This document shows positions 2,606-23,424 of a stretch of DNA of 32,000 bases, piece after piece. The position numbers and the translations under genes are program-made. The notes under the pieces are model-generated. The model was not told where the DNA came from and did not search any database. It saw nothing but the letters and a program-made list of their open reading frames with translations. Every line of letters starts with the position of its first letter. The stretch's first letter is position 1. The DNA comes from Chloroflexota bacterium (GTDB taxonomy: Bacteria > Chloroflexota > UBA11872 > VXOZ01). Location: positions 2,552,119-2,584,118 of the forward strand of contig OZ244922.1 in assembly GCA_965221905.1 (NCBI GenBank), in the 5' to 3' direction.

Positions 2606-2901
2606 GCCGAAAACGTAGCATTTAGGCTTCTTGCCACAGTGTTCGCAGTGCATCACACACTCATATGACACTGCGGCGATCATCTTATGTCAATAATGAA
2701 ACGCCACTACTCCCGGAACCACAAGTGCCATACTCGCTTGTCGCCAACCCAAGAGCTGACTACCTTCAAACAGCCGCCGTGGACGTGCGTAGAGCGATTG
2801 CGCCCCAAATCGGAACTCTCTGCTACAAGCATCGCTAGCGTGGTTCTACCCAAGGCCGGCAAGCTCGCGGGAGCGGCACTGTCGGACCCCGTGGCAAGAA
2901 A

Positions 2902-4005
2902 CTACGGCGAGAACTTCAAGCAAACCGGTGTCGGCACAGTGGCTACGTGTCCGGTGGGCTCAAGCTCTCCGGTTTCAAGGACTATGCGGAACGTGACGAT
3001 AGTGTCAGTATCCTGATTTGCCGCGAGCAAGAAGGTACCCGTGGGATCGATCACAAAATTGCGCGGCGCCTCGCCCAGCGTAGATTGATGCCCAACCAGA
3101 GTGAGTGTGCCATCTGCTTCGTCAATGCCATAGATGACAATGCTGTCGTGCCCGCGATTCGAGCCGTACACGAACTTTCCTGAGGGGTGAACGTGTATGT
3201 CGGCAGTGTGGCTGGTTTCCCCAAAGTCCGGCGGCAACGTAGGAATAGTCTGCAACTCTTCCAAGACGCCCCGACTTAGGTCGTAGGCAAAGACCGTAAC
3301 CGTGTTGCCGATCTCATTGATGACATAGACAACGCGGCCGTTGGGATGGAAGTCAAGATGGCGGGGCCCGGCGCCGGGATGCACGGTAGCAAAGGCCGGG
3401 TCATTTGGCGGCAATTTCCCATGTTCGAGATCAAGCCGGTAGACAAGCACCTGATCGAGACCGAGATCGCACGCCAGCGCGTACTTGTTAGCGGGATCGG
3501 GCGTGAAGGAATGACCGTGCGGCTCTCCTTGACGATCCGGGTTAACGCTGGACCCTTCATGCTGCGCCCAGTCCGTCGGAGGACCCAAGCTCCCGTCTTC
3601 CGCAATCGGCAGCATGGCCACGCTGCCACCCAGATAGTTTGCGGTGATCACATATCGGCCCGTCTGCTCCACGCTCACGTGACAGGGCCCTGGCCCCTGC
3701 GACGGCTGCCGGTTGAGAAATGTAAGTGCGCCCGTAGTCCGGTCCACCGCAAATGCGCTCACTGTCCCGCCGGCACGCCCGTCTATTTCCGGAACCGCAT
3801 TCACCGCATAGAGGAATGGACGCTCCGGGTGCAAGGTGAGGAATGACGGATTCGGCACGTCGGGGACTGTGTGCACCAACTCCACGGCGCCGGTAGTCAT
3901 TTCCATCCGGCAAACGTAGATTCCCTCTGCCCCGCCGCCGTGATCGTCAACGCCGGTAAACGTTCCTACATAGATGAATCTGGTATCCACAGACTGTGCA
4001 TTCAT
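2902..4005 (-). CDS. 7-bladed beta-propeller lactonase family protein (6-phosphogluconolactonase-like)
   Basis: Repeated blade motifs are present (LDFHPNGRVVYVINEIGNTVTVF, HVHPSGKFVYGSNRGHDSIVIY, IDPTGTFLLAANQDTDTIVTF). The track start at 4014 is GTG. The ATG at 4005 is preceded by GAGGTGG with 5-nt spacing, so I prefer it. Confidence 0.8.
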   Translation of the reverse strand: MNAQSVDTRFIYVGTFTGVDDHGGGAEGIYVCRMEMTTGAVELVHTVPDVPNPSFLTLHPERPFLYAVNAVPEIDGRAGGTVSAFAVDRTTGALTFLNRQPSQGPGPCHVSVEQTGRYVITANYLGGSVAMLPIAEDGSLGPPTDWAQHEGSSVNPDRQGEPHGHSFTPDPANKYALACDLGLDQVLVYRLDLEHGKLPPNDPAFATVHPGAGPRHLDFHPNGRVVYVINEIGNTVTVFAYDLSRGVLEELQTIPTLPPDFGETSHTADIHVHPSGKFVYGSNRGHDSIVIYGIDEADGTLTLVGHQSTLGEAPRNFVIDPTGTFLLAANQDTDTIVTFRIVLETGELEPTGHVATVPTPVCLKFSP

Positions 4006-6122: not shown

Positions 6123-8090
6123 ATGGCCAAGACAACTATACAAGACGACAGCAACGCTGCAACTATAGTTGCCGAAGCAGAATCGACCGCTGCAGCCTTG
6201 AATGACTATACCGCTGCCGACATCCAGGTTCTCGAGGGTCTGGAGCCTGTGCGAACCCGTCCCGGCATGTTCATCGGCAGTACAGACGTGCGAGGGCTCC
6301 ACCATCTTGTGTTCGAGGTTGTGGATAACAGTGTGGATGAAGCGCTCGCCGGCCTTTGTGACCGCATCGTCGTAACCATTCATGAGGATTGCAGCGTTAC
6401 TATCGAAGACAATGGCCGCGGGATTCCGGTTGACGTGCACGAAAAGACCGGTGTATCTGCCTTGGAGACCGTGCTCACGCGGCTGCACGCCGGCGGCAAG
6501 TTTGGCGGCAAGAGCTACAAAGTCTCCGGCGGCCTCCACGGTGTCGGCGTTTCTATTGTCAATGCACTATCGATAAAACTCGTCGCCACCATTTATCAAG
6601 CGCCTTACGTCTACCAACAAGAGTACCGCAGCGGCGCGCCCCTCGGCAAAGTAGAGCGGATCGGCAAGTCTGATCGAAATGGTACCACTATCCACTTTCT
6701 CCCTGATTCCACGATCATGGAGACGCTTGACTATGAGTTCAATACGCTGGCACAGCGTTTCCGTGAGATCGCCTATCTCTGTCCCGCCCTTCGTATCGAG
6801 TTCCGCGATGAACGGACTGCTCGCGAACTAACGTTCTACTTTGAGAGCGGGATCCGCGCCTTTGTTCATCAAATGAATCGGCGCAAGACGATCATCAATA
6901 ACGAGGGGATATTCTTTGCTGGGGAAGCAGACTCGCTGCAGCTCGAAGCGGCGCTGCAGTACACCCAGAGTTTTGACGAACGCATCTATGCCTTTGCAAA
7001 TACTATCAACAACGTGGACGGCGGCACGCACCTGACCGGGTTCCGCTCAGCTCTGACCCGCACATTGAACGACTACGCCCGCAAGCAGAACCTCATCAAG
7101 GAGAAAGATCTCTCCCTCACCGGCGACGACGTGCGCACCGGACTGACTGCGGTTATCAGTGTGCGGCTCACTAACCCGCAATTTGAGGGGCAGACCAAGG
7201 CCAAACTCGGCAATTCCGAAGTGCGGCGCTTTGTAGAAACGACTGTCAATCAGAAACTCGGCCAATATCTGGAAGAACATCCCAGCGAAGGCAAGTCCAT
7301 CATTGAAAAGTGCCTGAATGCAGCCCGCGGGCGCATAGCAGCGCAGAAGGCCCGGGACATGGTGGCACGCAAAGGCTACCTGGATGTCTCCACACTGCCG
7401 GGCAAACTTGCGGACTGCACGGAACGAAGTATGGAAAACGCCGAAATCTTTGTCGTGGAGGGCGATTCTGCCGGCGGCAACGCTAAGCAGGGGCGTGAAC
7501 GGCGCTTCCAGGCAATCCTCCCGCTGCGAGGCAAGATCCTCAATGCGGAGCGCACCAGCCTTGACCGTATGCTCTCAAATGCCGAGATTCGCGCGCTGGT
7601 GACAGCACTGGGCACGAACATTGGCGAGACCTTCGATATCACCAAACTGCGGTACGGCAAAGTCATCATCATGACGGACGCCGACGTTGACGGCGCCCAT
7701 ATCCGCACGCTTCTTCTCACGTTCTTCTTCCGGTACATGCGCGAGATTATTACGAATCAGCGGCTCTATGTTGCCCAAGCCCCGCTCTATCGCGTGGCCC
7801 GCAATCGTGATGTTCACTACGCCTGGGACGACTCCGAACGCGACAGTATTCTCAAGCAGTTTAATCGAACCAACGTCGCAGTCCAGAGGTACAAGGGCCT
7901 CGGCGAAATGAACGCCGATCAGCTTTGGGAAACGACCATGGATCCGGCGCGCCGCAAGCTCTTGCGGATTGTGCTGGAAGACGAGGCTGCCGTCAGCTTG
8001 GTATTCGACCGGCTCATGGGAGATGATCCGCAGGCGCGCAAGCGCTTTATCCAGGCGCACGCCAAAGAAGTCCAACATCTCGACGTTTAG
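6123..8090 (+). CDS. gyrB: DNA gyrase subunit B
   Basis: 655 aa with GHKL ATPase motifs (GLHHLVFEVVDNSVDEA, DNGRGIPVD) and Toprim motifs (VVEGDSAGG, PLRGKILNAE, IMTDADVDGAHI). The C-terminal tail is typical of GyrB. Confidence 0.97.
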   Translation: MAKTTIQDDSNAATIVAEAESTAAALNDYTAADIQVLEGLEPVRTRPGMFIGSTDVRGLHHLVFEVVDNSVDEALAGLCDRIVVTIHEDCSVTIEDNGRGIPVDVHEKTGVSALETVLTRLHAGGKFGGKSYKVSGGLHGVGVSIVNALSIKLVATIYQAPYVYQQEYRSGAPLGKVERIGKSDRNGTTIHFLPDSTIMETLDYEFNTLAQRFREIAYLCPALRIEFRDERTARELTFYFESGIRAFVHQMNRRKTIINNEGIFFAGEADSLQLEAALQYTQSFDERIYAFANTINNVDGGTHLTGFRSALTRTLNDYARKQNLIKEKDLSLTGDDVRTGLTAVISVRLTNPQFEGQTKAKLGNSEVRRFVETTVNQKLGQYLEEHPSEGKSIIEKCLNAARGRIAAQKARDMVARKGYLDVSTLPGKLADCTERSMENAEIFVVEGDSAGGNAKQGRERRFQAILPLRGKILNAERTSLDRMLSNAEIRALVTALGTNIGETFDITKLRYGKVIIMTDADVDGAHIRTLLLTFFFRYMREIITNQRLYVAQAPLYRVARNRDVHYAWDDSERDSILKQFNRTNVAVQRYKGLGEMNADQLWETTMDPARRKLLRIVLEDEAAVSLVFDRLMGDDPQARKRFIQAHAKEVQHLDV

Positions 8091-12305: not shown

Positions 12306-12447
12306 GGCTAACTCCTCGTAGACCTGTAATCGCTCATAGTGTTCCGTGGCAGTATCCAGATTTCAGAAAACTCTTTTTCAACATGGTGTAGCCCGGCAGC
12401 AAGCTTTAGGGAAATGCTGGTGCTGTACGGGGGAATACTTCCCCGGA

Positions 12448-12479
12448 CGTTCATGCTTCGACAAGCTCAGCACGAACGG
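12448..12479 (+). repeat. REP-like hairpin element (CGTTCATGCT-TCGACAAGCTC-AGCACGAACGG)
   Basis: Same core and outer arms as 14332-14364. It lies between the oxidoreductase stop (12527) and the sulfatase start (12305). It is immediately followed by a second hairpin, GGGGAA-TAC-TTCCCC (12430-12444). Confidence 0.85.
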
Positions 12480-12526
12480 CTGGGAAGTGCTATGCATTCC
12501 AAATAGCCTCTAACTAGAAGTACCAC

Positions 12527-13759
12527 CTAAGCAGAAGCCGATGCCAGCTCCTCCGCCACGAATTCTTTTATATTAATCCACTCACCGTTACGGCTGATCG
12601 ACTCCTCCGCTGCCAAACAGATGACCGTGCTCTCCATACCGGCTTCCGGCGCCACCGGCGCGGGCTTGTCGTGAGCGACGCAGTCCAAGAAGCGGAAAGC
12701 TTGCGTCAGGTCGCCGGAATGCCCCGGCAGGTTGCTGTCTCGGCTGACCTTATATACGGCATGGTCGTTAAGCGGACTGCGCCCGAAGACCTCGACCGAG
12801 CCGCCCTTCACGACTATGCGCCCGTTGTCGCCAATCGCATCCAAGACTGCCTTCGGCCCACTTGAAGCTGTAGCAAACAAGCAAAGCTGCAGGCAACCCC
12901 GGGCGCCGTTCTCATACTCTACGAGAACCCACGCGTGGTCGATGACATCGGTGTTTTCGGTAAGAACATGTTGGCCGCCGATGCCCATCACACGCTGCGG
13001 CTTAGAATCGACGAACCAGTTGAAGAGATCGAAGTCGTGGCAGTTTTTTTCGTTCAGCGCGCCGCCGCTCTGCGCCTGACTATACCGCCAGGGAGTCGGA
13101 GCAAATGGGTGTCGAATCGACTGGGCGGTTATCATCTGGGGACGGCCGATTTGACCGGTAGCAACAACCTCACGGGCCTTCGTCACGGCCGGGTTGGATC
13201 GCTCGTTAAGTCCCATGTACATTTTACCGCCGCTGCGATGCGCGGCGTCCACAATTGCCTGGCAGTCCGCCACGGTCGTCGCCAGCGGCTTGTCGCACAG
13301 CACCCATGCCCCCGTGTCGAGCGCCGCAACGGCAATCTCGCGATGCGCAAAGTTGGCGCTGACCACGACCACGGCATCCAGCGCGGCCTCATCCAGCATC
13401 TGCCGATAGTCGGTATAGGTCTTGGGCGGCTCCCTGCCAAGCTCCTCAGTCAGGATCTGCGTCGCCACATCAAGGTGTTCGTCCTTGATATCGCAGACGG
13501 CCACAATCTCGGCGCTCAGATCCCGTATCTCAACGATCCCGTACTCCTTGAGGCTGCGCGCATACTGCTTGTACATCTCTTCCGGGTAGGCTATGTCACG
13601 CGATTCACGCAGCACGGTTCCCCAATACGACGTCCGCTTCGTATGGCTCCAGTGCCGGTCCGCGCCCAGGTACGAACGACGGTCAACCTCACTGATCCAC
13701 CGCAGATAGTTCTGCCCGCGGCCGCCGATACCAACCACCCCCACGCGAATTGCGCTCAT
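12527..13759 (-). CDS. Gfo/Idh/MocA family NAD(P)-dependent oxidoreductase with an N-terminal insertion
   Basis: IRVGVVGIGGRGQ Rossmann motif, VAVCD strand, VLCDKPLA (EKP-type motif) and a C-terminal alpha/beta domain. About 56 extra residues sit between the GxGxxG helix and the VAVCD strand. Confidence 0.85.
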   Translation of the reverse strand: MSAIRVGVVGIGGRGQNYLRWISEVDRRSYLGADRHWSHTKRTSYWGTVLRESRDIAYPEEMYKQYARSLKEYGIVEIRDLSAEIVAVCDIKDEHLDVATQILTEELGREPPKTYTDYRQMLDEAALDAVVVVSANFAHREIAVAALDTGAWVLCDKPLATTVADCQAIVDAAHRSGGKMYMGLNERSNPAVTKAREVVATGQIGRPQMITAQSIRHPFAPTPWRYSQAQSGGALNEKNCHDFDLFNWFVDSKPQRVMGIGGQHVLTENTDVIDHAWVLVEYENGARGCLQLCLFATASSGPKAVLDAIGDNGRIVVKGGSVEVFGRSPLNDHAVYKVSRDSNLPGHSGDLTQAFRFLDCVAHDKPAPVAPEAGMESTVICLAAEESISRNGEWINIKEFVAEELASASA

Positions 13760-13941
13760 AGGTCAAGATCCTCGTTTCTGTTTAATCGTAACTGTGGGCA
13801 AGAATCCGATATGTAACCGAGAGATTGCCTGCCAAGGCACTGTAGCGCAAAGTCTCCGTTTGTCAGCTTAGTAGCCCATCCGCCCTGAACACCGACCACC
13901 ACACCTTGAAAGCCAAGACAACTCCTGAGCCTGCCCCCATA

Positions 13942-14331
13942 CCGTTCGCCCTGAGCTTGTCGAAGGGCCGTTCGCCCTGAGCTTGTCGAAGGGCCGTTCG
14001 CCCTGAGCTTGTCGAAGGGCCGTTCGCCCTGAGCTTGTCGAAGGGCCGTTCGCCCTGAGCTTGTCGAAGGGCCGTTCGCCCTGAGCTTGTCGAAGGGCCG
14101 TTCGCCCTGAGCTTGTCGAAGGGCCGTTCGCCCTGAGCTTGTCGAAGGGCCGTTCGCCCTGAGCTTGTCGAAGGGCCGTTCGCCCTGAGCTTGTCGAAGG
14201 GCCGTTCGCCCTGAGCTTGTCGAAGGGCCGTTCGCCCTGAGCTTGTCGAAGGGCCGTTCGCCCTGAGCTTGTCGAAGGGCCGTTCGCCCTGAGCTTGTCG
14301 AAGGGCCGTTCGCCCTGAGCTTGTCGAAGGG
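13942..14331. repeat. perfect tandem array, 15 copies of the 26-bp unit CCGTTCGCCCTGAGCTTGTCGAAGGG
   Basis: Read directly from the sequence. The period is exactly 26 bp (13942 + 15 x 26 = 14332) and I saw no substitutions. Each unit contains a GCCCT/AGGGC inverted repeat around the 11-nt core GAGCTTGTCGA. A degenerate partial copy may precede it (13923-13941). Confidence 0.95.
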
Positions 14332-14364
14332 CCGTTCATGGTTCGACAAGCTCACCACGAACGG
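14332..14364 (+). repeat. full REP-like hairpin element capping the array (CCGTTCATGGT-TCGACAAGCTC-ACCACGAACGG)
   Basis: 10 of 11 bp are complementary between the arms, around an 11-nt core. The core is the reverse complement of the core in the adjacent array units. Confidence 0.85.
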
Positions 14365-14407
14365 CACTGGCAGTCGTTCTGGCCAACCATTGTGTCACCC
14401 TCTAAGC

Positions 14408-14442
14408 CACATCTCCGCAGAGAAGTGTTCCGCGGAGATGTG
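14408..14442 (-). terminator. degenerate copy of the same terminator hairpin downstream of SBP gene 1 (11-bp stem, 13-nt loop, no U tract)
   Basis: CACATCTCCGC-agagaagtgttcc-GCGGAGATGTG lies 45 nt after the stop and is homologous to 16075-16111. The lack of a U-rich tail suggests leaky termination into the repeat array. Confidence 0.45.
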
Positions 14443-14486
14443 TTCTTGGACTAAATGGTTGCCAAAGTTGCCGTTCTAGCCTCTTA

Positions 14487-15857
14487 CTATCCCCTACCGG
14501 TCTCATCCAATCGCGCGTTCCACAACTTATCCAACTCGCGCGTAACCTCTTCCACCGAGGTCGTGCCTTCCCAGATCTTTGGCAGCAACTCACGTGCGAT
14601 ACCGTTAAAGGAAACGCCATCCCAACTGTGGGAATAGGGCACTACTGCGAAGTCAGGATTCTGGAGAAAGACGTGCCGATTCGCCGGCTTCTGCAAATGC
14701 GTATTCCAGAAGTACTCGTTTGCCTCTCTGTGCGCGGTTGGCGACCCAGCAACGAATGCTATTGCCCGGGCAAGCGCCCACTCGCCGCCGTCAGAGTTCG
14801 TATACCACTTCAGCACTTCCCACGCGGCATCAGGCGCATTGGTATTGCTGAAAATGCCGGCCCCGCCCGGAATGAAGAACGTCACTCTTCCCTCCGGCCC
14901 TTGCGGGATAAGACCGATCTCAAAATCCAGTCCTTCTACGGCAGCCAGCCTTACCGCGGCCCACTCCGGCAGGAATGACATCGAAACTACGCCTTGGGAA
15001 ATTCCGTTTCTCCATCCCAGCGTCGGATAAGGATGAACACGGTCCTTCAACATCAGGTCGGCGAGGTATTGCAACGCCGTAATGGAACCGGGATCCGTCA
15101 CGACCGACTTCGTATTCTCCTCGACAAGGAAGCCGCCCCCGTAGGAGCGCAGCACATGGTCGAGACGCACCAGGCGAAACTCTACCCCCCACGCCTCCGG
15201 TTCGCCGTCATTATTGGCGTCCTTAGTCAGCTTGCGCGCCGCTTCAGCGACGTCGTCCCAATTCCAGTTTTCGTCAGGTTCTTCGACACCCGCTTCGGCG
15301 AAGTGCTGCTTGTTATAGTAGAGCCCCTCAGTAGCATAGTTCCACGGCAGGCACCACAGGCCGCCTTCCGGTACGCGGTAGTAGTCCGTGACGCGCGGAT
15401 AGTACACGTCGATGTCGAACGAATTATCCGCCTTGGCATAGTCATCCAAGTTGACGAGGTTGCCGTCCACGGCGTACGTTAGGTGCGGGCCGGACATATG
15501 CACCACGTCCGACGCGGCGCCGGCAGCGACAAAGATGCGGATGTTCTCTTGATAGTTTCCCGCTCCCGCGACGATCAAATTGATCTGAATATCGGGATGC
15601 TTCTCATGGAAGTTCGCGAGCAAAGTGTCGAACGTTTCGGCGTTGCGCCCCGCAAACGGCCCGATGAAGAAGTCAACGACGGTCGGCTCGGCAGGCTCAG
15701 GTGGCTTCTGCTCCTCTTTGGGCGCCATTGCCTCCTTTTCTGCCGGTGCCGGCGTCGTCACGACGGTACCGCAAGCCGCCAAACCCAAGGCAACAAACGA
15801 TCCACCGATGCCCTGCAAGATTCGTCGCCTGCTTGTTTTACCGGCAATTGCCTTCAT
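14487..15857 (-). CDS. ABC transporter extracellular solute-binding protein (family 1, sugar-type), Tat signal plus lipobox
   Basis: SRRRILQGIGG...LGLAACG (twin-arginine plus lipobox), then a Pro/Glu/Lys-rich linker and an SBP fold. The ATG at 15857 is preceded by AGGAGGG with 7-nt spacing, the same context as its paralog. The track start at 15893 would sit 5 nt from the predicted -10 box. Confidence 0.85.
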   Translation of the reverse strand: MKAIAGKTSRRRILQGIGGSFVALGLAACGTVVTTPAPAEKEAMAPKEEQKPPEPAEPTVVDFFIGPFAGRNAETFDTLLANFHEKHPDIQINLIVAGAGNYQENIRIFVAAGAASDVVHMSGPHLTYAVDGNLVNLDDYAKADNSFDIDVYYPRVTDYYRVPEGGLWCLPWNYATEGLYYNKQHFAEAGVEEPDENWNWDDVAEAARKLTKDANNDGEPEAWGVEFRLVRLDHVLRSYGGGFLVEENTKSVVTDPGSITALQYLADLMLKDRVHPYPTLGWRNGISQGVVSMSFLPEWAAVRLAAVEGLDFEIGLIPQGPEGRVTFFIPGGAGIFSNTNAPDAAWEVLKWYTNSDGGEWALARAIAFVAGSPTAHREANEYFWNTHLQKPANRHVFLQNPDFAVVPYSHSWDGVSFNGIARELLPKIWEGTTSVEEVTRELDKLWNARLDETGRG

Positions 15858-15897
15858 GCTCGCACCCTCCTGCATAACTTCAATCTGCTTCAAGTCG

Positions 15898-16074: not shown

Positions 16075-16111
16075 ACACATCTCCGCAGAGACATGCTCTG
16101 CGGAGATGTGT
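16075..16111 (-). terminator. intrinsic terminator of SBP gene 2 (16-bp stem, 5-nt loop, U-rich tail)
   Basis: ACACATCTCCGCAGAG-acatg-CTCTGCGGAGATGTGT lies 44 nt after the stop. On the minus strand it is followed by TTTCGTTTGCAG. Confidence 0.65.
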
Positions 16112-18974: not shown

Positions 18975-19118
18975 AGATGGCCGGTTCTAGTAGTACGACA
19001 CCATTGCACTGACGGGTAGTTGCGCGGGGCATGGTTGCCTATCAATGCAGGTCAACGGCGCAGGTTACGCGCACGACCCGTGCGAACCTACGCTACCGGC
19101 GCTCCCACTCATTGATAC

Positions 19119-19132
19119 AAGCTTGTCGAACC
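19119..19132 (-). repeat. fragment of the REP-like core (AAGCTTGTCGAACC)
   Basis: 11-nt exact match (AGCTTGTCGAA) to the array unit, abutting the TAA stop of the TIM-barrel gene (19134-19136). No flanking arms are visible, so this is a remnant at best. Confidence 0.4.
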
Positions 19133-19133
19133 A

Positions 19134-19988
19134 TTAGGCCGCCCGCTCTAACACAGCGTCAAGGGCCTGTTTGGCAATGCTCACTGCTACTTCTCGGTCT
19201 TGATTGCGAAATGCCTCGTCGAAGACCTCGATGGCGACGTAGCCGTCGAAGCCAATCTCAGCAATCGCCTGGAACCATCCCACCAAGTCTATGACGCCTC
19301 GGCCGGGCAGCACGCGGTCCGTGTCTTCCAGGCTCATCACGTCGGCATGGGGGGCATCATTCACGTGCAAGTGCACGATATCCTGCGCGCGCAACGAACG
19401 AATCTGCGACAAATCGCCGCCGCTCGTGAAGTAATGGAACGAGTCGAGAATCAAGCCGACGTTCGGCCTGCCGGTCTCACGGAGCATAGTAATGGTGTCC
19501 GGCACGTTGTTGATGAATGCATGGGGTTCGTCCAGCCGGAACGTGCGCAGACCCAGAAACTCCAGGCCGATGGCAATGCCATGAGGCTCCGCCCGCTCAG
19601 CTAATGTGCCCGTACGATCTCTTAGAATCCGGCGTGCCTCGTCCGGCGGCAGCGGCATACGATTGGGGAAGTACGAGCCGGTGCGCCGGCAACCTACGGA
19701 TTCTGCCACCGCGCAGTTCTCCGAAAACTGGTCAAGAGACTGCATAAACTCTGCCTCCGGCGAAAATATCCCTGCCGGGATAAATCCCATGAAGGCGGGC
19801 AGCGCACCGTGGGCGGCAAAGAGATCGCGCACAGAGGCAGGCGATGTCTCCTCCACCAATGCCCGCACTGCGCCGAAAGAAGCGTCTACTCCCGGTAAGC
19901 CAAAGCGCTTGGCTAGAGCAAGCATCTCCGCCAACGAATAGCCTGCTTTTAAAACTGACCCATGAAGTGATTGTTGTGGCAAGGTCAT
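19134..19988 (-). CDS. xylose-isomerase-like TIM-barrel protein (sugar phosphate isomerase/epimerase family)
   Basis: GIAIGLEFLG, VGLILDSFHYF, VHLHVNDA and GYVAIEVF are the metal-ligand-bearing strands of the PF01261-type barrel. The start is ambiguous (ATG at 20003, 19994 or 19988). I chose 19988 on GGAGAG spacing. The track start at 20126 overlaps the upstream gene. Confidence 0.78.
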   Translation of the reverse strand: MTLPQQSLHGSVLKAGYSLAEMLALAKRFGLPGVDASFGAVRALVEETSPASVRDLFAAHGALPAFMGFIPAGIFSPEAEFMQSLDQFSENCAVAESVGCRRTGSYFPNRMPLPPDEARRILRDRTGTLAERAEPHGIAIGLEFLGLRTFRLDEPHAFINNVPDTITMLRETGRPNVGLILDSFHYFTSGGDLSQIRSLRAQDIVHLHVNDAPHADVMSLEDTDRVLPGRGVIDLVGWFQAIAEIGFDGYVAIEVFDEAFRNQDREVAVSIAKQALDAVLERAA

Positions 19989-20046
19989 GTTCATTCTCTC
20001 CATTGTGAATCCGCTGCCAATCTTCTGATGTGCTCTGCTACCTTCT

Positions 20047-21012
20047 TCAAGGGGCTTCGGCATAGTCGAACTTCCAAAACACCTCTTCCTCAAGCAAAGC
20101 AGCCGGTAGCTCCGGCCAGTCTGCAATACCTATGCGCTCCGCATACATGCTGAGCGCATCTTGCTTCTCCTCCGGGGCAGTTACGTGAACACGCAGGTCC
20201 GGAGGTCGCCGCGCGTCGGCTTTTTGTGAATATACAAGCACCCTAGCGGTAGGGGGCGCCACTTCGCGCAACGACCGCACAATCAGCCGTCCCGCGGCAG
20301 CCGCGGTCTCATCTTCACTGTCGGGTGAGGGAAAGTAAATCTCCCTCGGGTTCAATTCAACCAGCACGTCATTCAGGTCGCGCAATACAAAATTGAACGC
20401 ATACGGGAAACCGTATCCGGTGCGCAGGATGCGATACGGGGTGACGTTGGGATCATGTACGCCGTCTTTCTCGGTGTAGGGCGAGCGGATCACTTGGTCC
20501 GGCGCTTCCTCCGCCAATTGATGCAAATTGCCGTCGGGATATGAGAGGAAGAATACGTCTTCCCACGTTAAGCCAAACGAATTCTCCGCCACTTTCAATG
20601 CCGTTTCCTGGAGCACCGCCGCCCCGTGCAGATATTGCCGTGGGGTGGGCGTAGCATCTGCAGGCAGGTCGGCAAGTCCTCGCGCAACAATAGTCTGGGC
20701 GTCACCGTCGGTCACAAAGACGATGACGACTCGCTTGCCCTGCGCGACTGCTTGCCTAATCGTGGCGAATGCCGACACCGCCGCATCACCGGGACGTGCC
20801 GCAAATACGACAACATCCGCCTTTGCGATGGGATCTCCGCCAATCGCAGCGGTAGTAGGTGGCACATAGTCGGCAGGGGGTTGTATCTCCGGCTGAGAGC
20901 GGATTGCGTTATACAGGCGGCCAAAGCGCTCCGTACTTCCTTCAGCCGAACAACCAACGAGCAAGAACGGAAGCAGAATACAAAGTATCCAACGGGGCAC
21001 ACGCCTTACCAT
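20047..21012 (-). CDS. exported lipoprotein with LmbE/PIG-L-like deacetylase fold but degenerate catalytic motifs
   Basis: Signal peptide plus lipobox (LLPFLLVGCS). VVVFAARPGDAAVS...GKRVVIVFVTDGDA aligns to the PIG-L pattern vlvisAHPDDE...G..v.vv.lTDG. FFLSYPDGNL matches the lpDG motif. SPDSEDET sits where HPDH is expected. The start (GTG 21015 or ATG 21012) overlaps the upstream stop. Confidence 0.5.
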   Translation of the reverse strand: MVRRVPRWILCILLPFLLVGCSAEGSTERFGRLYNAIRSQPEIQPPADYVPPTTAAIGGDPIAKADVVVFAARPGDAAVSAFATIRQAVAQGKRVVIVFVTDGDAQTIVARGLADLPADATPTPRQYLHGAAVLQETALKVAENSFGLTWEDVFFLSYPDGNLHQLAEEAPDQVIRSPYTEKDGVHDPNVTPYRILRTGYGFPYAFNFVLRDLNDVLVELNPREIYFPSPDSEDETAAAAGRLIVRSLREVAPPTARVLVYSQKADARRPPDLRVHVTAPEEKQDALSMYAERIGIADWPELPAALLEEEVFWKFDYAEAP

Positions 21013-21809
21013 CACATTCTACCTACCAGCTCGATGAGGTTGTCTCCCCTAAAGCAGATTGTCGTCCCCCCACGCCGAATGCTGTACACGCCATCGCACG
21101 CAATGGCATCGAGAAACCTCGGTGAGCTGTACTGCAAGCACAATTCATACGGCGGCGCAATGAAATGTGGCGTCAATTCACCGGCGCGGCGCACCGCCCG
21201 CGCTGCAGCCTCACGGATCCTGGCGTGCTGGTCGGCAACAGGCAAGAGCTTGGCGGCATGCCGTCCCAGCCCGGTCTTGACCGGCACAACATCCACCAAA
21301 GGCCCCAGCAACGCGCAGGCCTCTGCACACACCTTGTCATCGCCGACCACGATACCGACCGGTACGCCGTAAACGCCCGCGCATGCGGCGCTTAGTCCCA
21401 ATTCGCCTATCGCCACTCCGTTCAGCCAAACGTCGCTCCAACGTGACGAACTCACGGTATGGTCTCGAAAAGCGTGCATCGTGCCCTGAGCTGCGTGGTA
21501 TCCCACGCAGAAGAAAACGTCAACATCAGGTTCCAAAATTGCGTGCTGGGGATAGGGCAGGTTGCCCATATAGACGTCCGCGCGCGGGTCAATCTGCTCT
21601 ATTGGCATGTTCATGCTGCTGCCGTGGTTATCGTGCACAATTACGTCTGTGGCGCCGCCAACAAAAGCCCCCTCTATGGCGGCATTTACCTCCGCCATCA
21701 CCAATCTTCGGCCCTGCTGATATTGCCGCCCCCCAATGTGGCGGGAAATCTGCTCGCGCAGCGCAACGCCGGCGAGTCCTTCCATATCAACGCTGATGTA
21801 TACGCGCAC
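21012..21809 (-). CDS. D-aminopeptidase DppA-like (peptidase family M55)
   Basis: VRVYISVDMEGLAGV, VHDNHGS, VGYHAAQGT, GELGLSAACAGVYGVPVGIVVGDD are collinear with B. subtilis DppA. The GTG at 21809 is preceded by GGAGG with 9-nt spacing. The track ATG at 21890 would add 27 non-conserved residues. Confidence 0.85.
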   Translation of the reverse strand: MRVYISVDMEGLAGVALREQISRHIGGRQYQQGRRLVMAEVNAAIEGAFVGGATDVIVHDNHGSSMNMPIEQIDPRADVYMGNLPYPQHAILEPDVDVFFCVGYHAAQGTMHAFRDHTVSSSRWSDVWLNGVAIGELGLSAACAGVYGVPVGIVVGDDKVCAEACALLGPLVDVVPVKTGLGRHAAKLLPVADQHARIREAAARAVRRAGELTPHFIAPPYELCLQYSSPRFLDAIACDGVYSIRRGGTTICFRGDNLIELVGRM

Positions 21810-21884
21810 GGATGTCTGCCTCCGAGGACTATTCGTACCACGTCTAGTATCGCCTACGCGGCCAATCTGCGCTACACTATGAAT

Positions 21885-21933
21885 ACGCATGTCTATGCGT
21901 ACGCACGTCTATGCGTGCGCACATCTTATGCGC
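21885..21933. promoter_or_regulatory. three head-to-tail 16-17-bp palindromic repeats (ACGCATGTCTATGCGT / ACGCACGTCTATGCGT / GCGCACATCTTATGCGC) in a divergent intergenic region
   Basis: Read directly. Each unit is a 5-6-bp inverted repeat around a 4-7-nt centre. The repeats lie between the dppA-like operon (start 21809, minus) and the oxidoreductase gene (start 22037, plus). The sequence is certain; the operator function is inferred. Confidence 0.55.
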
Positions 21934-22036
21934 GCGCAGCAGAGAGCCGTAACGAACGGCTGTGCGCGGGAGCTACCTCGCTTTACTTCCTTAGTTTGAC
22001 CCGAACTCTCCACTGGAACCATTATGATTCAACACA

Positions 22037-23131: not shown

Positions 23132-23164
23132 CCGTTTACGCTTCGACAGGCTCAGCGCGAACGG
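23132..23164 (+). repeat. diverged REP-like hairpin element (CCGTTTACGCT-TCGACAGGCTC-AGCGCGAACGG)
   Basis: The core differs at one position (TCGACAGGCTC) and 8 of 10 arm positions pair. It lies about 73 nt after the oxidoreductase stop (23059). Confidence 0.7.
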
Positions 23165-23171
23165 TTGGAGC

Positions 23172-23268
23172 ATTCCGCGCTCGGTTTCCCGCGCTCAATT
23201 CTCTGCGCTCGGATTTCCGTGCTCGGTTCTCCGTGCTCGGTTTTCTGCGCTCCGTTTACTGAGCTGGG
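23172..23268. repeat. degenerate 13-15-bp minisatellite, about 7 units of consensus TTYTCYGYGCTCGG
   Basis: Units read directly: attccgcgctcgg / tttcccgcgctcaa / ttctctgcgctcgga / tttccgtgctcgg / ttctccgtgctcgg / ttttctgcgctccg / tttactgagctggg. The array starts 8 nt after the REP-like element at 23132-23164. Confidence 0.75.
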
Positions 23269-23424
23269 TCTAAAGCGCTGCGTTTCTTGTGCTCTTGGTG
23301 ATTTGCGCCGCATACAGTTTGGCACAATCAAGCCTCGGCACACTCGTGCCTTGGTACACTCAGGCCTTAACACATCCACGCCACTGATACTGCAAAACCG
23401 GCAAGGTAGAAAGAGAGAGAGTTT

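What the first reader, a model, noticed from the sequence alone, without database searches (positions are those of the whole stretch)
13942..14364. Perfect 15 x 26-bp tandem array of a REP-like half-element, capped by an inverted full element, between two same-strand genes
Nt 13942-14331 are 15 head-to-tail copies of CCGTTCGCCCTGAGCTTGTCGAAGGG, and I can see no substitution. The position of a 16th unit is taken by a full hairpin element (14332-14364, CCGTTCATGGT-TCGACAAGCTC-ACCACGAACGG). Its segment TTCGACAAGCTCA is the exact reverse complement of TGAGCTTGTCGAA in every array unit, so the cap can pair with the array in 15 equivalent registers. Each unit on its own forms a GCCCT/AGGGC stem with an 11-nt loop. 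The period is not a multiple of 3. The minus strand has no stop in any frame, which produces the phantom ORFs reading LRQAQGERPFDKLRANGPSTSSGRTA. The plus strand has a TGA in every unit. The array lies on the transcribed strand between a solute-binding-protein gene (stop 14487, with a degenerate terminator) and a Gfo/Idh/MocA gene (start 13759). Zero divergence among 15 copies implies very recent or ongoing expansion (slippage or gene conversion), or an assembly artefact. REP/BIME elements between malE and malF in E. coli are known to stabilise the upstream message. By analogy, this array could set differential expression or act as a copy-number-variable switch. I know of no described function for such an amplified form.
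Basis: partly seen in the sequence, partly recalled or inferred. Interest (0 to 1): 0.72.

Follow-up and report, generated by a model that had tools for sequence, protein, structure and literature searches.

The report
Hypervariable tandem array of a hairpin repeat
The perfect 15 x 26-bp array is real and is a strain-specific, fast-changing expansion of one arm of a small palindromic intergenic repeat that occurs across many bacterial phyla; it looks like tolerated repeat instability, not a dedicated switch.

Summary
Nt 13942-14331 are 15 identical 26-bp units, followed by an inverted full hairpin at 14332-14364. They lie between a solute-binding-protein gene and a Gfo/Idh/MocA gene, both on the minus strand, in a Chloroflexota genome.

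Sister strains show how the array arose. One has the cap plus exactly one unit, a 59-nt long hairpin. Others have 2-4, about 9-10, about 11 and about 20 units, mostly as a 52-bp alternation of intact and degenerate units. An 83% ortholog has no element. The window allele is therefore a recently homogenised expansion at a variable-number tandem-repeat (VNTR) locus.

The unit belongs to a very widespread repeat family. Its mark is an invariant 13-nt core, TGAGCTTGTCGAA, closed by a short covarying stem, usually found as head-to-head pairs. Direct arrays of the core (periods 14-51 bp, up to 14 copies) recur in many phyla.

A single unit does not fold better than shuffled sequence; only the cap and the cap-unit pair are stable.

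The most likely mechanism is slippage or unequal recombination in a non-coding gap between a conserved terminator-like hairpin and the next promoter. No function of the amplified form is shown. The family has no Rfam match above threshold, and no searched paper holds its sequence.

The parts
13942..14331 (.). Tandem array of 15 identical 26-bp units. The + strand reads CCGTTCGCCCTGAGCTTGTCGAAGGG; the gene-sense (minus) strand reads CCCTTCGACAAGCTCAGGGCGAACGG.
   Evidence: TRF: period 26, 15.2 copies, 100% match. Sequence read directly. A regular-expression count gives one run of 15 perfect units.
14332..14364 (.). Cap: a full hairpin copy of the element in inverted orientation. The minus strand reads CCGTTCGTGG-TGAGCTTGTCGAA-CCATGAACGG. 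Together with one unit it forms the ancestral head-to-head pair.
   Evidence: Sequence. Folds at -16.5 kcal/mol as RNA, z -4.6. Present at the same place in L205, L208, L209-211 and L215-223.
13924..13941 (.). Partial degenerate unit (cctgagcctgcccccata) at the end of the array far from the cap. It matches the degenerate 'D' unit that alternates with intact units in sister strains.
   Evidence: Compared with L221, L222 and L223, where D is ccgttcaccctgcgcctgcccccgta.
14408..14442 (-). Terminator-like hairpin, 46-80 nt downstream of the SBP stop codon: 14-bp stem, 7-nt loop, no U tract.
   Evidence: Inverted repeat I7. Folds at -25.5 kcal/mol, z -6.0. The same stem with a different loop is present in the 83% ortholog L207 and after the paralogous SBP gene at 16075-16111.
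13839..13866 (-). Promoter-like site (CTGACA-16-TACAGT) between the array and the Gfo/Idh/MocA start codon. It lies in the roughly 180-nt segment conserved in the strains that carry the array.
   Evidence: Consensus scan: 1 site found against 0.8 expected, so this is weak evidence. Conservation of the segment is seen.
12527..13759 (-). Downstream gene: Gfo/Idh/MocA-family oxidoreductase.
   Evidence: Pfam PF01408, PF22725 and PF02894. A homolog at 98% identity exists.
14487..15893 (-). Upstream gene: extracellular solute-binding protein. Relatives are called as 456 aa, so the true start is probably downstream of the TTG at 15893.
   Evidence: Pfam PF01547. Gene calls in L205 and L220-222.
12448..12478 (.). 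Second, single full-hairpin copy of the same family, between the Gfo/Idh/MocA gene and the sulfatase gene. The minus strand reads cgttcgtgc-TGAGCTTGTCGAA-gcatgaacg.
   Evidence: Conserved in L205, L212, L218 and L219, and replaced by other sequence in L208-210, L215 and L216.
23132..23164 (.). Third single copy, with one mismatch in the core: CCGTTTACGC-TTCGACAGGCTCA-GCGCGAACGG. It is intergenic.

Best explanation
The array is a strain-specific, recently homogenised expansion of one arm of a head-to-head dimer of a small palindromic intergenic repeat.

The repeat family is marked by an invariant 13-nt core, TGAGCTTGTCGAA, closed by a short covarying stem.

Ancestral state (shown): cap hairpin plus one inverted half-unit, which together form a 59-nt long hairpin.

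Inferred steps:
1. The half-unit duplicated.
2. The resulting 26-bp direct repeats grew, shrank and were homogenised by replication slippage and/or unequal recombination. Nearby hairpin-forming DNA may have helped.

Result (shown): alleles with 1 to about 20 units in strains of one Chloroflexota species.

The array sits in non-coding DNA, after a conserved terminator-like hairpin and before the likely promoter of the next gene. Length changes there are tolerated (inferred). No function specific to the amplified form is needed to explain it.
For: Anatomy:
- The array is perfect and the cap is inverted.

Evolutionary series at the orthologous site:
- L207 (83% Gfo identity) has only the terminator-like hairpin and a 133-nt spacer.
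- L205 (98% protein identity) has the cap plus exactly one unit. Its spacer is 363 nt against 727 nt in the window, a difference of 364 = 14 x 26.
- L208 has a 52-bp repeat x2, and L212-214 have 26 bp x2.4.
- L221 has 52 bp x5.0, L223 has 26 bp x9.3, L220 has about 9-11 irregular units, and L222 has 52 bp x10.0.
- L220-L223 all come from one sample and are 95-98% identical to the window in the flanks.

Family:
- 85 viral-collection loci carry the element, typically as inverted pairs.
- There are 88 arrays of at least 3 copies, with periods of 14-51 bp and up to 14 copies. Of the 81 that lie away from locus ends, 30 have an inverted copy within 80 nt.

Structure:
- The three pairs next to the core are Watson-Crick in 82-90% of 487 unique instances, with several pair types.
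- The covariation score is 0.607 against 0.238 for shuffles (0 of 500 reach it) and 0.11-0.21 for slid controls.
- The cap-unit pair folds at -34.9 kcal/mol, z -6.6. Units alone give z about 0.

Not coding:
- The period is not a multiple of 3.
- Copy number differs among strains.
- The phantom ORFs have no Pfam family.
Against: - Slippage itself was not observed. It is inferred from the allele series.
- The strains compared differ by 2-8% in flanking DNA, so the rate of change is unknown.
- The source and read type of the window are unknown, so the exact count of 15 is not independently verified.
- Ascertainment bias: the genome scan required two direct cores, so it shows that arrays recur, not how often.
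- The near-universal 13-nt core and the tendency of arrays to include it could point to an active, factor-dependent process rather than passive slippage.
- No transcript data exist to exclude an RNA-level role.
Confidence: 0.68

Rival explanations
1. The array is a functional, copy-number-dependent regulator. As RNA it would protect or insulate the upstream SBP message, or tune read-through into the Gfo/Idh/MocA gene. Slippage would then act as a phase-variable switch.
For: - The array lies between two same-strand genes.
- The cap can pair with any of the 15 units, and the whole region folds at z -4.08.
- Copy number does vary among strains.
- REP elements are known to stabilise upstream mRNA in E. 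coli (established knowledge, malE-malF).
Against: - A strong conserved hairpin already follows the SBP stop codon, upstream of the array.
- Units alone have no structure beyond shuffled sequence.
- Alleles with 0, 1, 2, about 10 and about 20 units, and alleles with the distal half replaced by unrelated DNA, all keep intact flanking genes.
- Related arrays in other phyla have many different periods and contexts.
Confidence: 0.12
2. The arrays are made by an active, element-specific mechanism. An unidentified transposase, HUH nuclease, reverse transcriptase or host factor would recognise the 13-nt-loop hairpin and generate tandem copies by template switching or rolling-hairpin synthesis. Generic slippage would not be the cause.
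For: - The 13-nt core is invariant while the closing stem covaries, as expected for a protein-recognised hairpin.
- The family spans many phyla.
- Arrays with periods as short as 14-16 bp keep the core.
- 5 of 85 loci chosen for a single element show local tandem (partial) duplications.
- 37% of arrays adjoin an inverted copy.
Against: - No recurrent transposase-like ORF family was found next to elements. Recurrent clusters were ABC ATPases and phage or GTA-like structural genes, and two plasmid contexts had none.
- The cap has no fixed polarity: 16 on the 3' side, 10 on the 5' side, 4 on both, 51 with none.
- The 52-bp and 159-bp higher-order repeats in sister strains are typical of unequal recombination.
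Confidence: 0.1
3. The 15 copies are an assembly artefact (expansion or mis-collapse of a short repeat).
For: - The array is 390 bp of perfect repeat, which short reads cannot resolve.
- The origin of the window is unknown.
- Exact look-ups of the flanking proteins found no record.
Against: - Four other contigs of the same species carry arrays of 240-520 bp at the same site with different internal structure. They come from assemblies whose contig names carry coverage tags and lengths up to megabases.
- A GyrB protein identical to the window's lies on a 3.52-Mb contig.
- Comparable arrays occur in isolate and long-contig genomes of other phyla.
Confidence: 0.05
4. The array is a protein-binding site array such as iterons or a centromere-like partition site. 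Each unit contains the short palindromes AGCT and TCGA.
For: It consists of direct repeats of constant phase, 15 x 26 bp. Each core contains two 4-bp palindromes (direct reading of the sequence).
Against: - No rep, par or plasmid genes are nearby. The neighbours are sugar-metabolism and housekeeping genes, including gyrB and carB.
- Copy number ranges from 0 to about 20 among strains.
- The same core is dispersed as single hairpins and pairs in many phyla.
Confidence: 0.03

Closest known systems
REP / BIME clusters and REPINs (REP doublets) of Proteobacteria
   Same: - Short extragenic palindromic repeats.
- Usually arranged as head-to-head inverted pairs that form a long hairpin; the ancestral cap plus unit does this.
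- Clusters of variable copy number lie between genes. Nunvar et al. 2010 (PMC2817692) state that BIMEs hold regularly spaced REPs.
   Different: - BIMEs alternate REP orientation (PMC2817692 abstract). Here 15 half-units are all in direct orientation.
- There is no GTAG tag.
- The stem is short and variable around an invariant 13-nt loop. REP sequences are species-specific (recalled from memory, not tested here), whereas this core is the same across phyla.
- No RAYT association could be tested.
CGTC-tagged REPs (Di Nocera et al. 2013, PMC3733652)
   Same: - Mostly head-to-head dimers, found in several phyla, with no dedicated transposase known.
- Variants of this family in other genomes begin CGTCAT and end ..ATCC (L144, L194).
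   Different: - CGTC REPs have 8-9-bp stems and 4-5-nt loops with CCA tails.
- This family has a 3-4-bp obligatory stem (up to 11 bp in full copies) and a 13-nt invariant loop.
- The copies in the window start CCGTTC, not CGTC.
Bacterial VNTR / minisatellites such as MIRU-VNTR loci of Mycobacterium tuberculosis
   Same: - Intergenic tandem repeats of tens of bp inside gene clusters.
- Copy number differs between strains.
- Tandem-repeat copy number in M. tuberculosis is reported as phase-variable (PMC12817950, title only).
   Different: - The unit here is half of a dispersed palindromic element and is capped by its inverted partner.
- It has no small ORFs or translational coupling.
- It belongs to a family that crosses phyla.
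Rfam RF02901 AaHKsRNA41 (Aggregatibacter sRNA 41)
   Same: The first long stem of the model is CUGAgCUUGcCGAAG ... gUUCGgCAAGcUCAg, which is a head-to-head pair of the same core. It aligns to the last unit plus the cap in the window and to a pair in Actinobacillus porcinus. This suggests that such pairs can be transcribed.
   Different: Scores are 32 and 43 bits against a gathering score of 97. The rest of the model does not match, so this is not a member.

Membership tests
REP / BIME (RAYT-type repetitive extragenic palindromes) | Short (20-40 nt) imperfect palindrome able to form a stem-loop | tested here: met
   The 33-nt cap folds at -16.5 kcal/mol, z -4.6. This holds for full copies only; the 26-bp array unit alone gives z +0.78.
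REP / BIME (RAYT-type repetitive extragenic palindromes) | Many dispersed extragenic copies per genome | tested here: inconclusive
   Only 32 kb is available. It holds three intergenic copies, the array and one relic. A genome-wide count was not possible.
REP / BIME (RAYT-type repetitive extragenic palindromes) | Conserved GTAG (or CGTC) tetranucleotide at one end | tested here: not met
   The copies in the window begin CCGTTC or ACGTTC and have no GTAG next to them. CGTCAT-type heads occur only in relatives from other genomes.
REP / BIME (RAYT-type repetitive extragenic palindromes) | Cognate RAYT (IS200-like Y1 transposase) gene flanked by the repeats | not testable with these tools
   The whole genome was not available. 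No transposase-like family recurred in the 204 loci sampled.
REP / BIME (RAYT-type repetitive extragenic palindromes) | In clusters, successive copies alternate in orientation | tested here: not met
   All 15 units are direct; only the cap is inverted.
REPIN (REP doublet forming a long hairpin) | Two inverted copies separated by a short spacer, folding into one long hairpin | tested here: met
   Met for the ancestral allele, cap plus one unit in L205: -34.9 kcal/mol, z -6.6. Inverted pairs are the commonest arrangement in other loci.
VNTR / minisatellite | Head-to-tail repeats of 10-100 bp whose copy number differs among strains at one locus | tested here: met
   TRF gives 15.2 x 26 in the window. 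Alleles with 1, 2-4, about 9-10, about 11 and about 20 units occur at the orthologous site.
CRISPR array | Direct repeats separated by unique spacers of similar length | tested here: not met
   Units abut without spacers.
Rfam RF02901 AaHKsRNA41 | Covariance-model score at or above the gathering threshold (97 bits) | tested here: not met
   32.3 bits in the window and 43.2 bits in L161. No Rfam family reaches its gathering score anywhere in the window.
Intrinsic (Rho-independent) terminator | G+C-rich hairpin followed by a U tract | tested here: not met
   No terminator-like site was found in 13760-14486. Neither the hairpin at 14408-14442 nor the cap is followed by a T run.
Iteron / centromere-like repeat arrays | Direct repeats next to rep or par genes on a replicon that depends on them | tested here: not met
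   The neighbours are SBP, Gfo/Idh/MocA, sulfatase, GH57, gyrB and carB. Copy number is 0 to about 20 among strains.
[quoted passage not shown] | Terminal inverted repeats plus target-site duplication, derived from a parent IS | tested here: inconclusive
   The pair has inverted arms. The empty site in L207 is too diverged to reveal a target-site duplication, and no parent IS was identified.

The most novel reading that the evidence does not exclude
The hairpin with the invariant 13-nt loop TGAGCTTGTCGAA and a covarying 3-4-bp stem may be an undescribed, pan-bacterial structured element recognised by a conserved factor. Under this reading, the direct arrays (including this 15-mer) are products of that factor's copying or nicking activity rather than of passive slippage. 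The copy-number polymorphism would then be a readout of ongoing activity in natural populations.
Probability: 0.1. Interest if true: 0.8.

Novelty: new variant of a known kind. Interest (0 to 1): 0.45.

Why it matters
- It gives a clean natural series (empty site, inverted pair, arrays of 2 to about 20 units) for how a dispersed palindromic repeat turns into a hypervariable minisatellite. The alleles come from co-occurring strains of an uncultured Chloroflexota species.
- It flags a repeat family whose 13-nt core is identical from Actinomycetota to Cyanobacteria, Bacteroidota and Proteobacteria. The family has no Rfam match above threshold, and no searched paper holds its sequence.
- The family produces phantom ORFs that gene callers accept. 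A 99-aa ORF was called in a sister array.
- Practically, such loci are strain markers and assembly hazards.
- Biologically, the conserved loop needs an explanation.

Tried and rejected
- **Rfam:** nothing reaches the gathering score in the whole window. A permissive scan gave only a sub-threshold AaHKsRNA41 match and miRNA noise.
- **Literature:** three searches for the core DNA and for the phantom peptides found primers only or nothing. REP papers describe different architectures.
- **Coding repeat protein:** rejected. The period is not a multiple of 3, there is no Pfam hit, and frame-breaking copy-number differences exist among strains.
- **CRISPR, iteron and terminator readings:** rejected on anatomy and context.
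- **Unit-level hairpin:** rejected by folding.
- **Obligatory cap or fixed polarity of array growth:** rejected.
- **Transposase association:** all-against-all clustering of ORFs from 204 loci gave only ABC ATPases and phage or GTA-like genes. Two plasmid contexts showed none.
- **Source contig:** exact look-ups of both flanking proteins and of one identical GyrB failed.
- **Metagenome scans:** the scan for the pure-unit junction and the scan for a conserved flank both found nothing in the JGI collection.
- **Strand asymmetry (G-T against A-C in the fourth stem pair):** looked at by eye as a clue to an RNA-level role. In the pairs read, each arm shows the same asymmetry on its own strand, so it gives no support for RNA over DNA (pair-type counts).

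Full report
**Observation**

Reading 13600-14700 and Tandem Repeats Finder confirm the array. It spans 13942-14337 with period 26, 15.2 copies, 100% matches, no indels and score 792. The consensus unit is CCGTTCGCCCTGAGCTTGTCGAAGGG.

The fractional copy is the CCGTTC that begins the next element, the 33-nt cap CCGTTCATGG-TTCGACAAGCTCA-CCACGAACGG at 14332-14364. Its 13-mer is the exact reverse complement of the 13-mer in every unit. The window holds 20 matches to that 13-mer at up to 2 mismatches, against 0.78 expected.

On the minus strand the unit never has T followed by A or G. No stop codon can therefore occur in any frame, which explains the mechanical ORFs 13756-14367 and 13863-14339. These have no Pfam family.

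Both flanking genes are on the minus strand: a solute-binding protein (PF01547, 14487-15893) and a Gfo/Idh/MocA oxidoreductase (12527-13759).

GyrB in the window (6123-8090) is identical to proteins on contigs of 2.0 and 3.5 Mb. It is 92% identical to one named 'Chloroflexota bacterium'. The organism is therefore a Chloroflexota with a genome of about 3.5 Mb.

**Corrections to the description**

A single unit does not fold better than shuffled sequence. As RNA it gives -3.2 kcal/mol with z +0.78, as DNA z -0.28, and two units give z about 0.

Three structures are stable:
- the cap (-16.5 kcal/mol, z -4.6);
- the cap paired with one unit (-34.9 kcal/mol, z -6.6);
- a 14-bp hairpin at 14408-14442, just downstream of the SBP stop codon (-25.5 kcal/mol, z -6.0), which has no U tract.

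The z-score of -4.08 for the whole region comes from these, not from the array.

The same stem sequence follows the paralogous SBP gene at 16075-16111. It is also kept, with a different loop, in an 83% ortholog. It is probably the functional end of the SBP transcripts (inferred).

**Orthologous loci**

The Gfo/Idh/MocA protein has a cluster of 72 relatives at 90% identity or more, plus orthologs at 80-83%. I fetched their contigs and those carrying an identical or 99%-identical GyrB.

| Locus | Relation to the window | State of the SBP-Gfo spacer |
|---|---|---|
| L207 | 83% Gfo ortholog, on a 3.28-Mb contig | Terminator-like hairpin only; 133-nt spacer, no element |
| L205 | 98% protein identity | Hairpin, cap and exactly one unit; 363 nt against 727 nt in the window (364 = 14 x 26) |
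| L229 | 94% nucleotide identity on the gyrB-Gfo side | 363-nt spacer by gene coordinates; content not read |
| L208 | in the 72-member cluster at 90% identity or more | 52-bp repeat x2 |
| L212-214 | same cluster | No cap; 26 bp x2.4 |
| L209-211, L215-219 | same cluster | Cap, a rearranged right half and unrelated downstream DNA |
| L221 | 95-98% flank identity, sample ERZ25069191 | 52 bp x5.0 |
| L223 | same | 26 bp x9.3 |
| L220 | same | About 9-11 irregular units |
| L222 | same | 52 bp x10.0, with a 159-bp higher order |

In L220-L223 the array alternates an intact unit with a degenerate unit (ccgttcaccctgcgcctgcccccgta). The window has 15 intact units and only a partial degenerate unit, at 13924-13941.

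The locus is therefore a VNTR with 1 to about 20 units within one species. The window allele is a recent homogenised expansion of the intact unit.

These contigs have coverage-tagged names and sizes up to megabases, and they differ in internal structure. A pure assembly artefact is therefore unlikely. The source reads of the window itself could not be traced.

**The element family**

*Distribution.* A scan of viral-collection contigs with CCGTTCNNNNTGAGCTTGTCGAA found 85 loci. These came from Actinomycetota, Chloroflexota, Eremiobacterota, Bacteroidota, Cyanobacteria, Alpha-, Beta- and Gammaproteobacteria, Desulfobacterota, Planctomycetota, Acidobacteriota, Latescibacterota, Patescibacteria and others. 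BLAST against plasmids found the pair in 50 plasmids, including Moraxella osloensis, Sphingobium, Sinorhizobium and Comamonas. The two hits I inspected lie between annotated genes.

*Forms.* There are two usual forms:
- a single full hairpin, CCGTTCG-NNN-core-N'N'N'-TGAACGG;
- a head-to-head pair of half-elements separated by 0-40 nt.

*Structure.* In 487 unique instances the three positions on each side of the core are Watson-Crick in 90, 87 and 82% of cases, with several pair types. On 148 sequences, one per locus, 72% of cells pair against 51.5% in shuffles. The covariation score is 0.607 against 0.238 (0 of 500 shuffles reach it) and 0.11-0.21 for slid controls. Copies of a repeat family are related to one another, so these figures overstate independence. 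The C-G, G-C and T-A alternations at pairs 2 and 3 are nonetheless clear.

*Known families.* No Rfam family reaches its threshold. The only meaningful weak hit, AaHKsRNA41, has a first stem that is itself a pair of this core.

**Arrays elsewhere**

The genome loci hold 88 runs of at least 3 direct cores. Periods range from 14 to 51 bp and copy numbers reach 14. Examples are 12 x 30 and 10 x 28 in a Limnocylindria MAG, 9 x 23 in a Bacteroidota MAG, 7 x 42 in Microbacterium phycohabitans and 7 x 34 in Microlunatus kandeliicorticis. Most carry substitutions.

Of the 81 runs away from locus ends:
- 16 have an inverted copy on the 3' side, as in the window;
- 10 have one on the 5' side;
- 4 have one on both sides;
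- 51 have none.

The cap is thus the frequent remnant of the original pair. It is not an obligatory part and not a fixed growth pole.

The scan was designed to find arrays, so it shows recurrence, not frequency. As a less biased hint, 5 of the 85 loci chosen for a single element show local tandem or partial duplications of the core.

**Mechanism**

Shown:
- the ancestral pair;
- the allele series;
- the higher-order 52-bp and 159-bp repeats;
- the perfect homogeneity of the window allele;
- the non-coding position between a conserved hairpin and a segment conserved up to the Gfo start codon. That segment holds a weak promoter-like site at 13866-13839.

Inferred: expansion, contraction and homogenisation by replication slippage and/or unequal recombination between 26-bp and 52-bp direct repeats, possibly favoured by the adjacent hairpin-forming DNA, and tolerated because nothing in the gap is length-sensitive.

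I put this at about 0.68.

Rivals:
- a copy-number-dependent RNA or regulatory role (0.12);
- an active, factor-driven amplification tied to the conserved loop (0.10);
- an assembly artefact (0.05);
- a protein-binding repeat array (0.03).

No transposase-like family recurred near elements in 204 loci, but this is a weak test.

**Comparison with known systems**

It works like a REP/REPIN-type palindromic repeat that has become a minisatellite. For membership in each known class:
- REP/BIME: the palindrome and inverted-pair features are met. The GTAG/CGTC tag and the alternating orientation of clusters are not met. RAYT association is untestable here.
- CGTC-tagged REPs (PMC3733652): these share the head-to-head habit and the lack of a known transposase. 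They have 8-9-bp stems and 4-5-nt loops.
- Bacterial VNTR: the locus meets the definition.

The family's cross-phylum 13-nt core did not turn up in Rfam or in the literature I could search. That literature excludes most subscription journals.

**Verdict**

The functional 'switch' idea is unsupported. The array is best filed as a new variant of a known kind: a direct-repeat VNTR grown from one arm of a palindromic intergenic repeat.

The more intriguing open question is why the 13-nt loop is so widely conserved.

Noticed in passing
window 16075-16111 and 14408-14442; L207 3906-3935: The same hairpin stem (ACACATCTCCGCAGAG / CTCTGCGGAGATGTGT) follows both paralogous SBP genes. It is kept with a different loop in an 83% ortholog. 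It looks like a conserved terminator-like hairpin without a U tract.
   Followed up: partly
window 23173-23257 and 23319-23368: Two further imperfect tandem repeats lie directly downstream of the third element copy at 23132-23164: 14 nt x6 (TTCCGCGCTCGGTT, 74% matches) and 16 nt x3. Intergenic tandem repeats may be common in this genome.
   Followed up: no
window 21884-21938: A 16-nt tandem and palindromic repeat, TACGCACGTCTATGCG x3, overlaps the predicted start end of the minus-strand ORF 21012-21890.
   Followed up: no
window 19111-19135: A relic half-element (caAGCTTGTCGAAccattagg) abuts the stop codon of the minus-strand ORF 19134-20126.
   Followed up: no
L212-L214, about 120-175 nt after the SBP stop codon: In these strains the cap hairpin is replaced by an unrelated inverted repeat (gtttgcg...cgacaaac), while the units remain. 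Elements appear to turn over at one site.
   Followed up: no
window 12306-12526; L208-L210, L215, L216 at 2734-3180: The Gfo-sulfatase spacer is also polymorphic. It is 221-258 nt with a full hairpin copy in some strains. In others it is 447-448 nt, lacks an intact core and holds fragments resembling element arms.
   Followed up: partly
L222 18324-18623: A gene caller recorded a 99-aa ORF lying largely within the sister array. Such arrays seed phantom proteins in databases.
   Followed up: no
About 30 of L001-L085 (for example L007, L019, L022, L024): Many 'viral' contigs carrying the element share capsid, portal and non-contractile tail sheath protein genes. These look like GTA-like or prophage clusters, probably of Proteobacteria, with the element between the genes.
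   Followed up: partly
L161 5880-6088 (Actinobacillus porcinus): A head-to-head pair of the same core matches the first stem of Rfam AaHKsRNA41 at 43 bits, below the threshold of 97. That sRNA family may be built on a copy of this repeat.
   Followed up: partly
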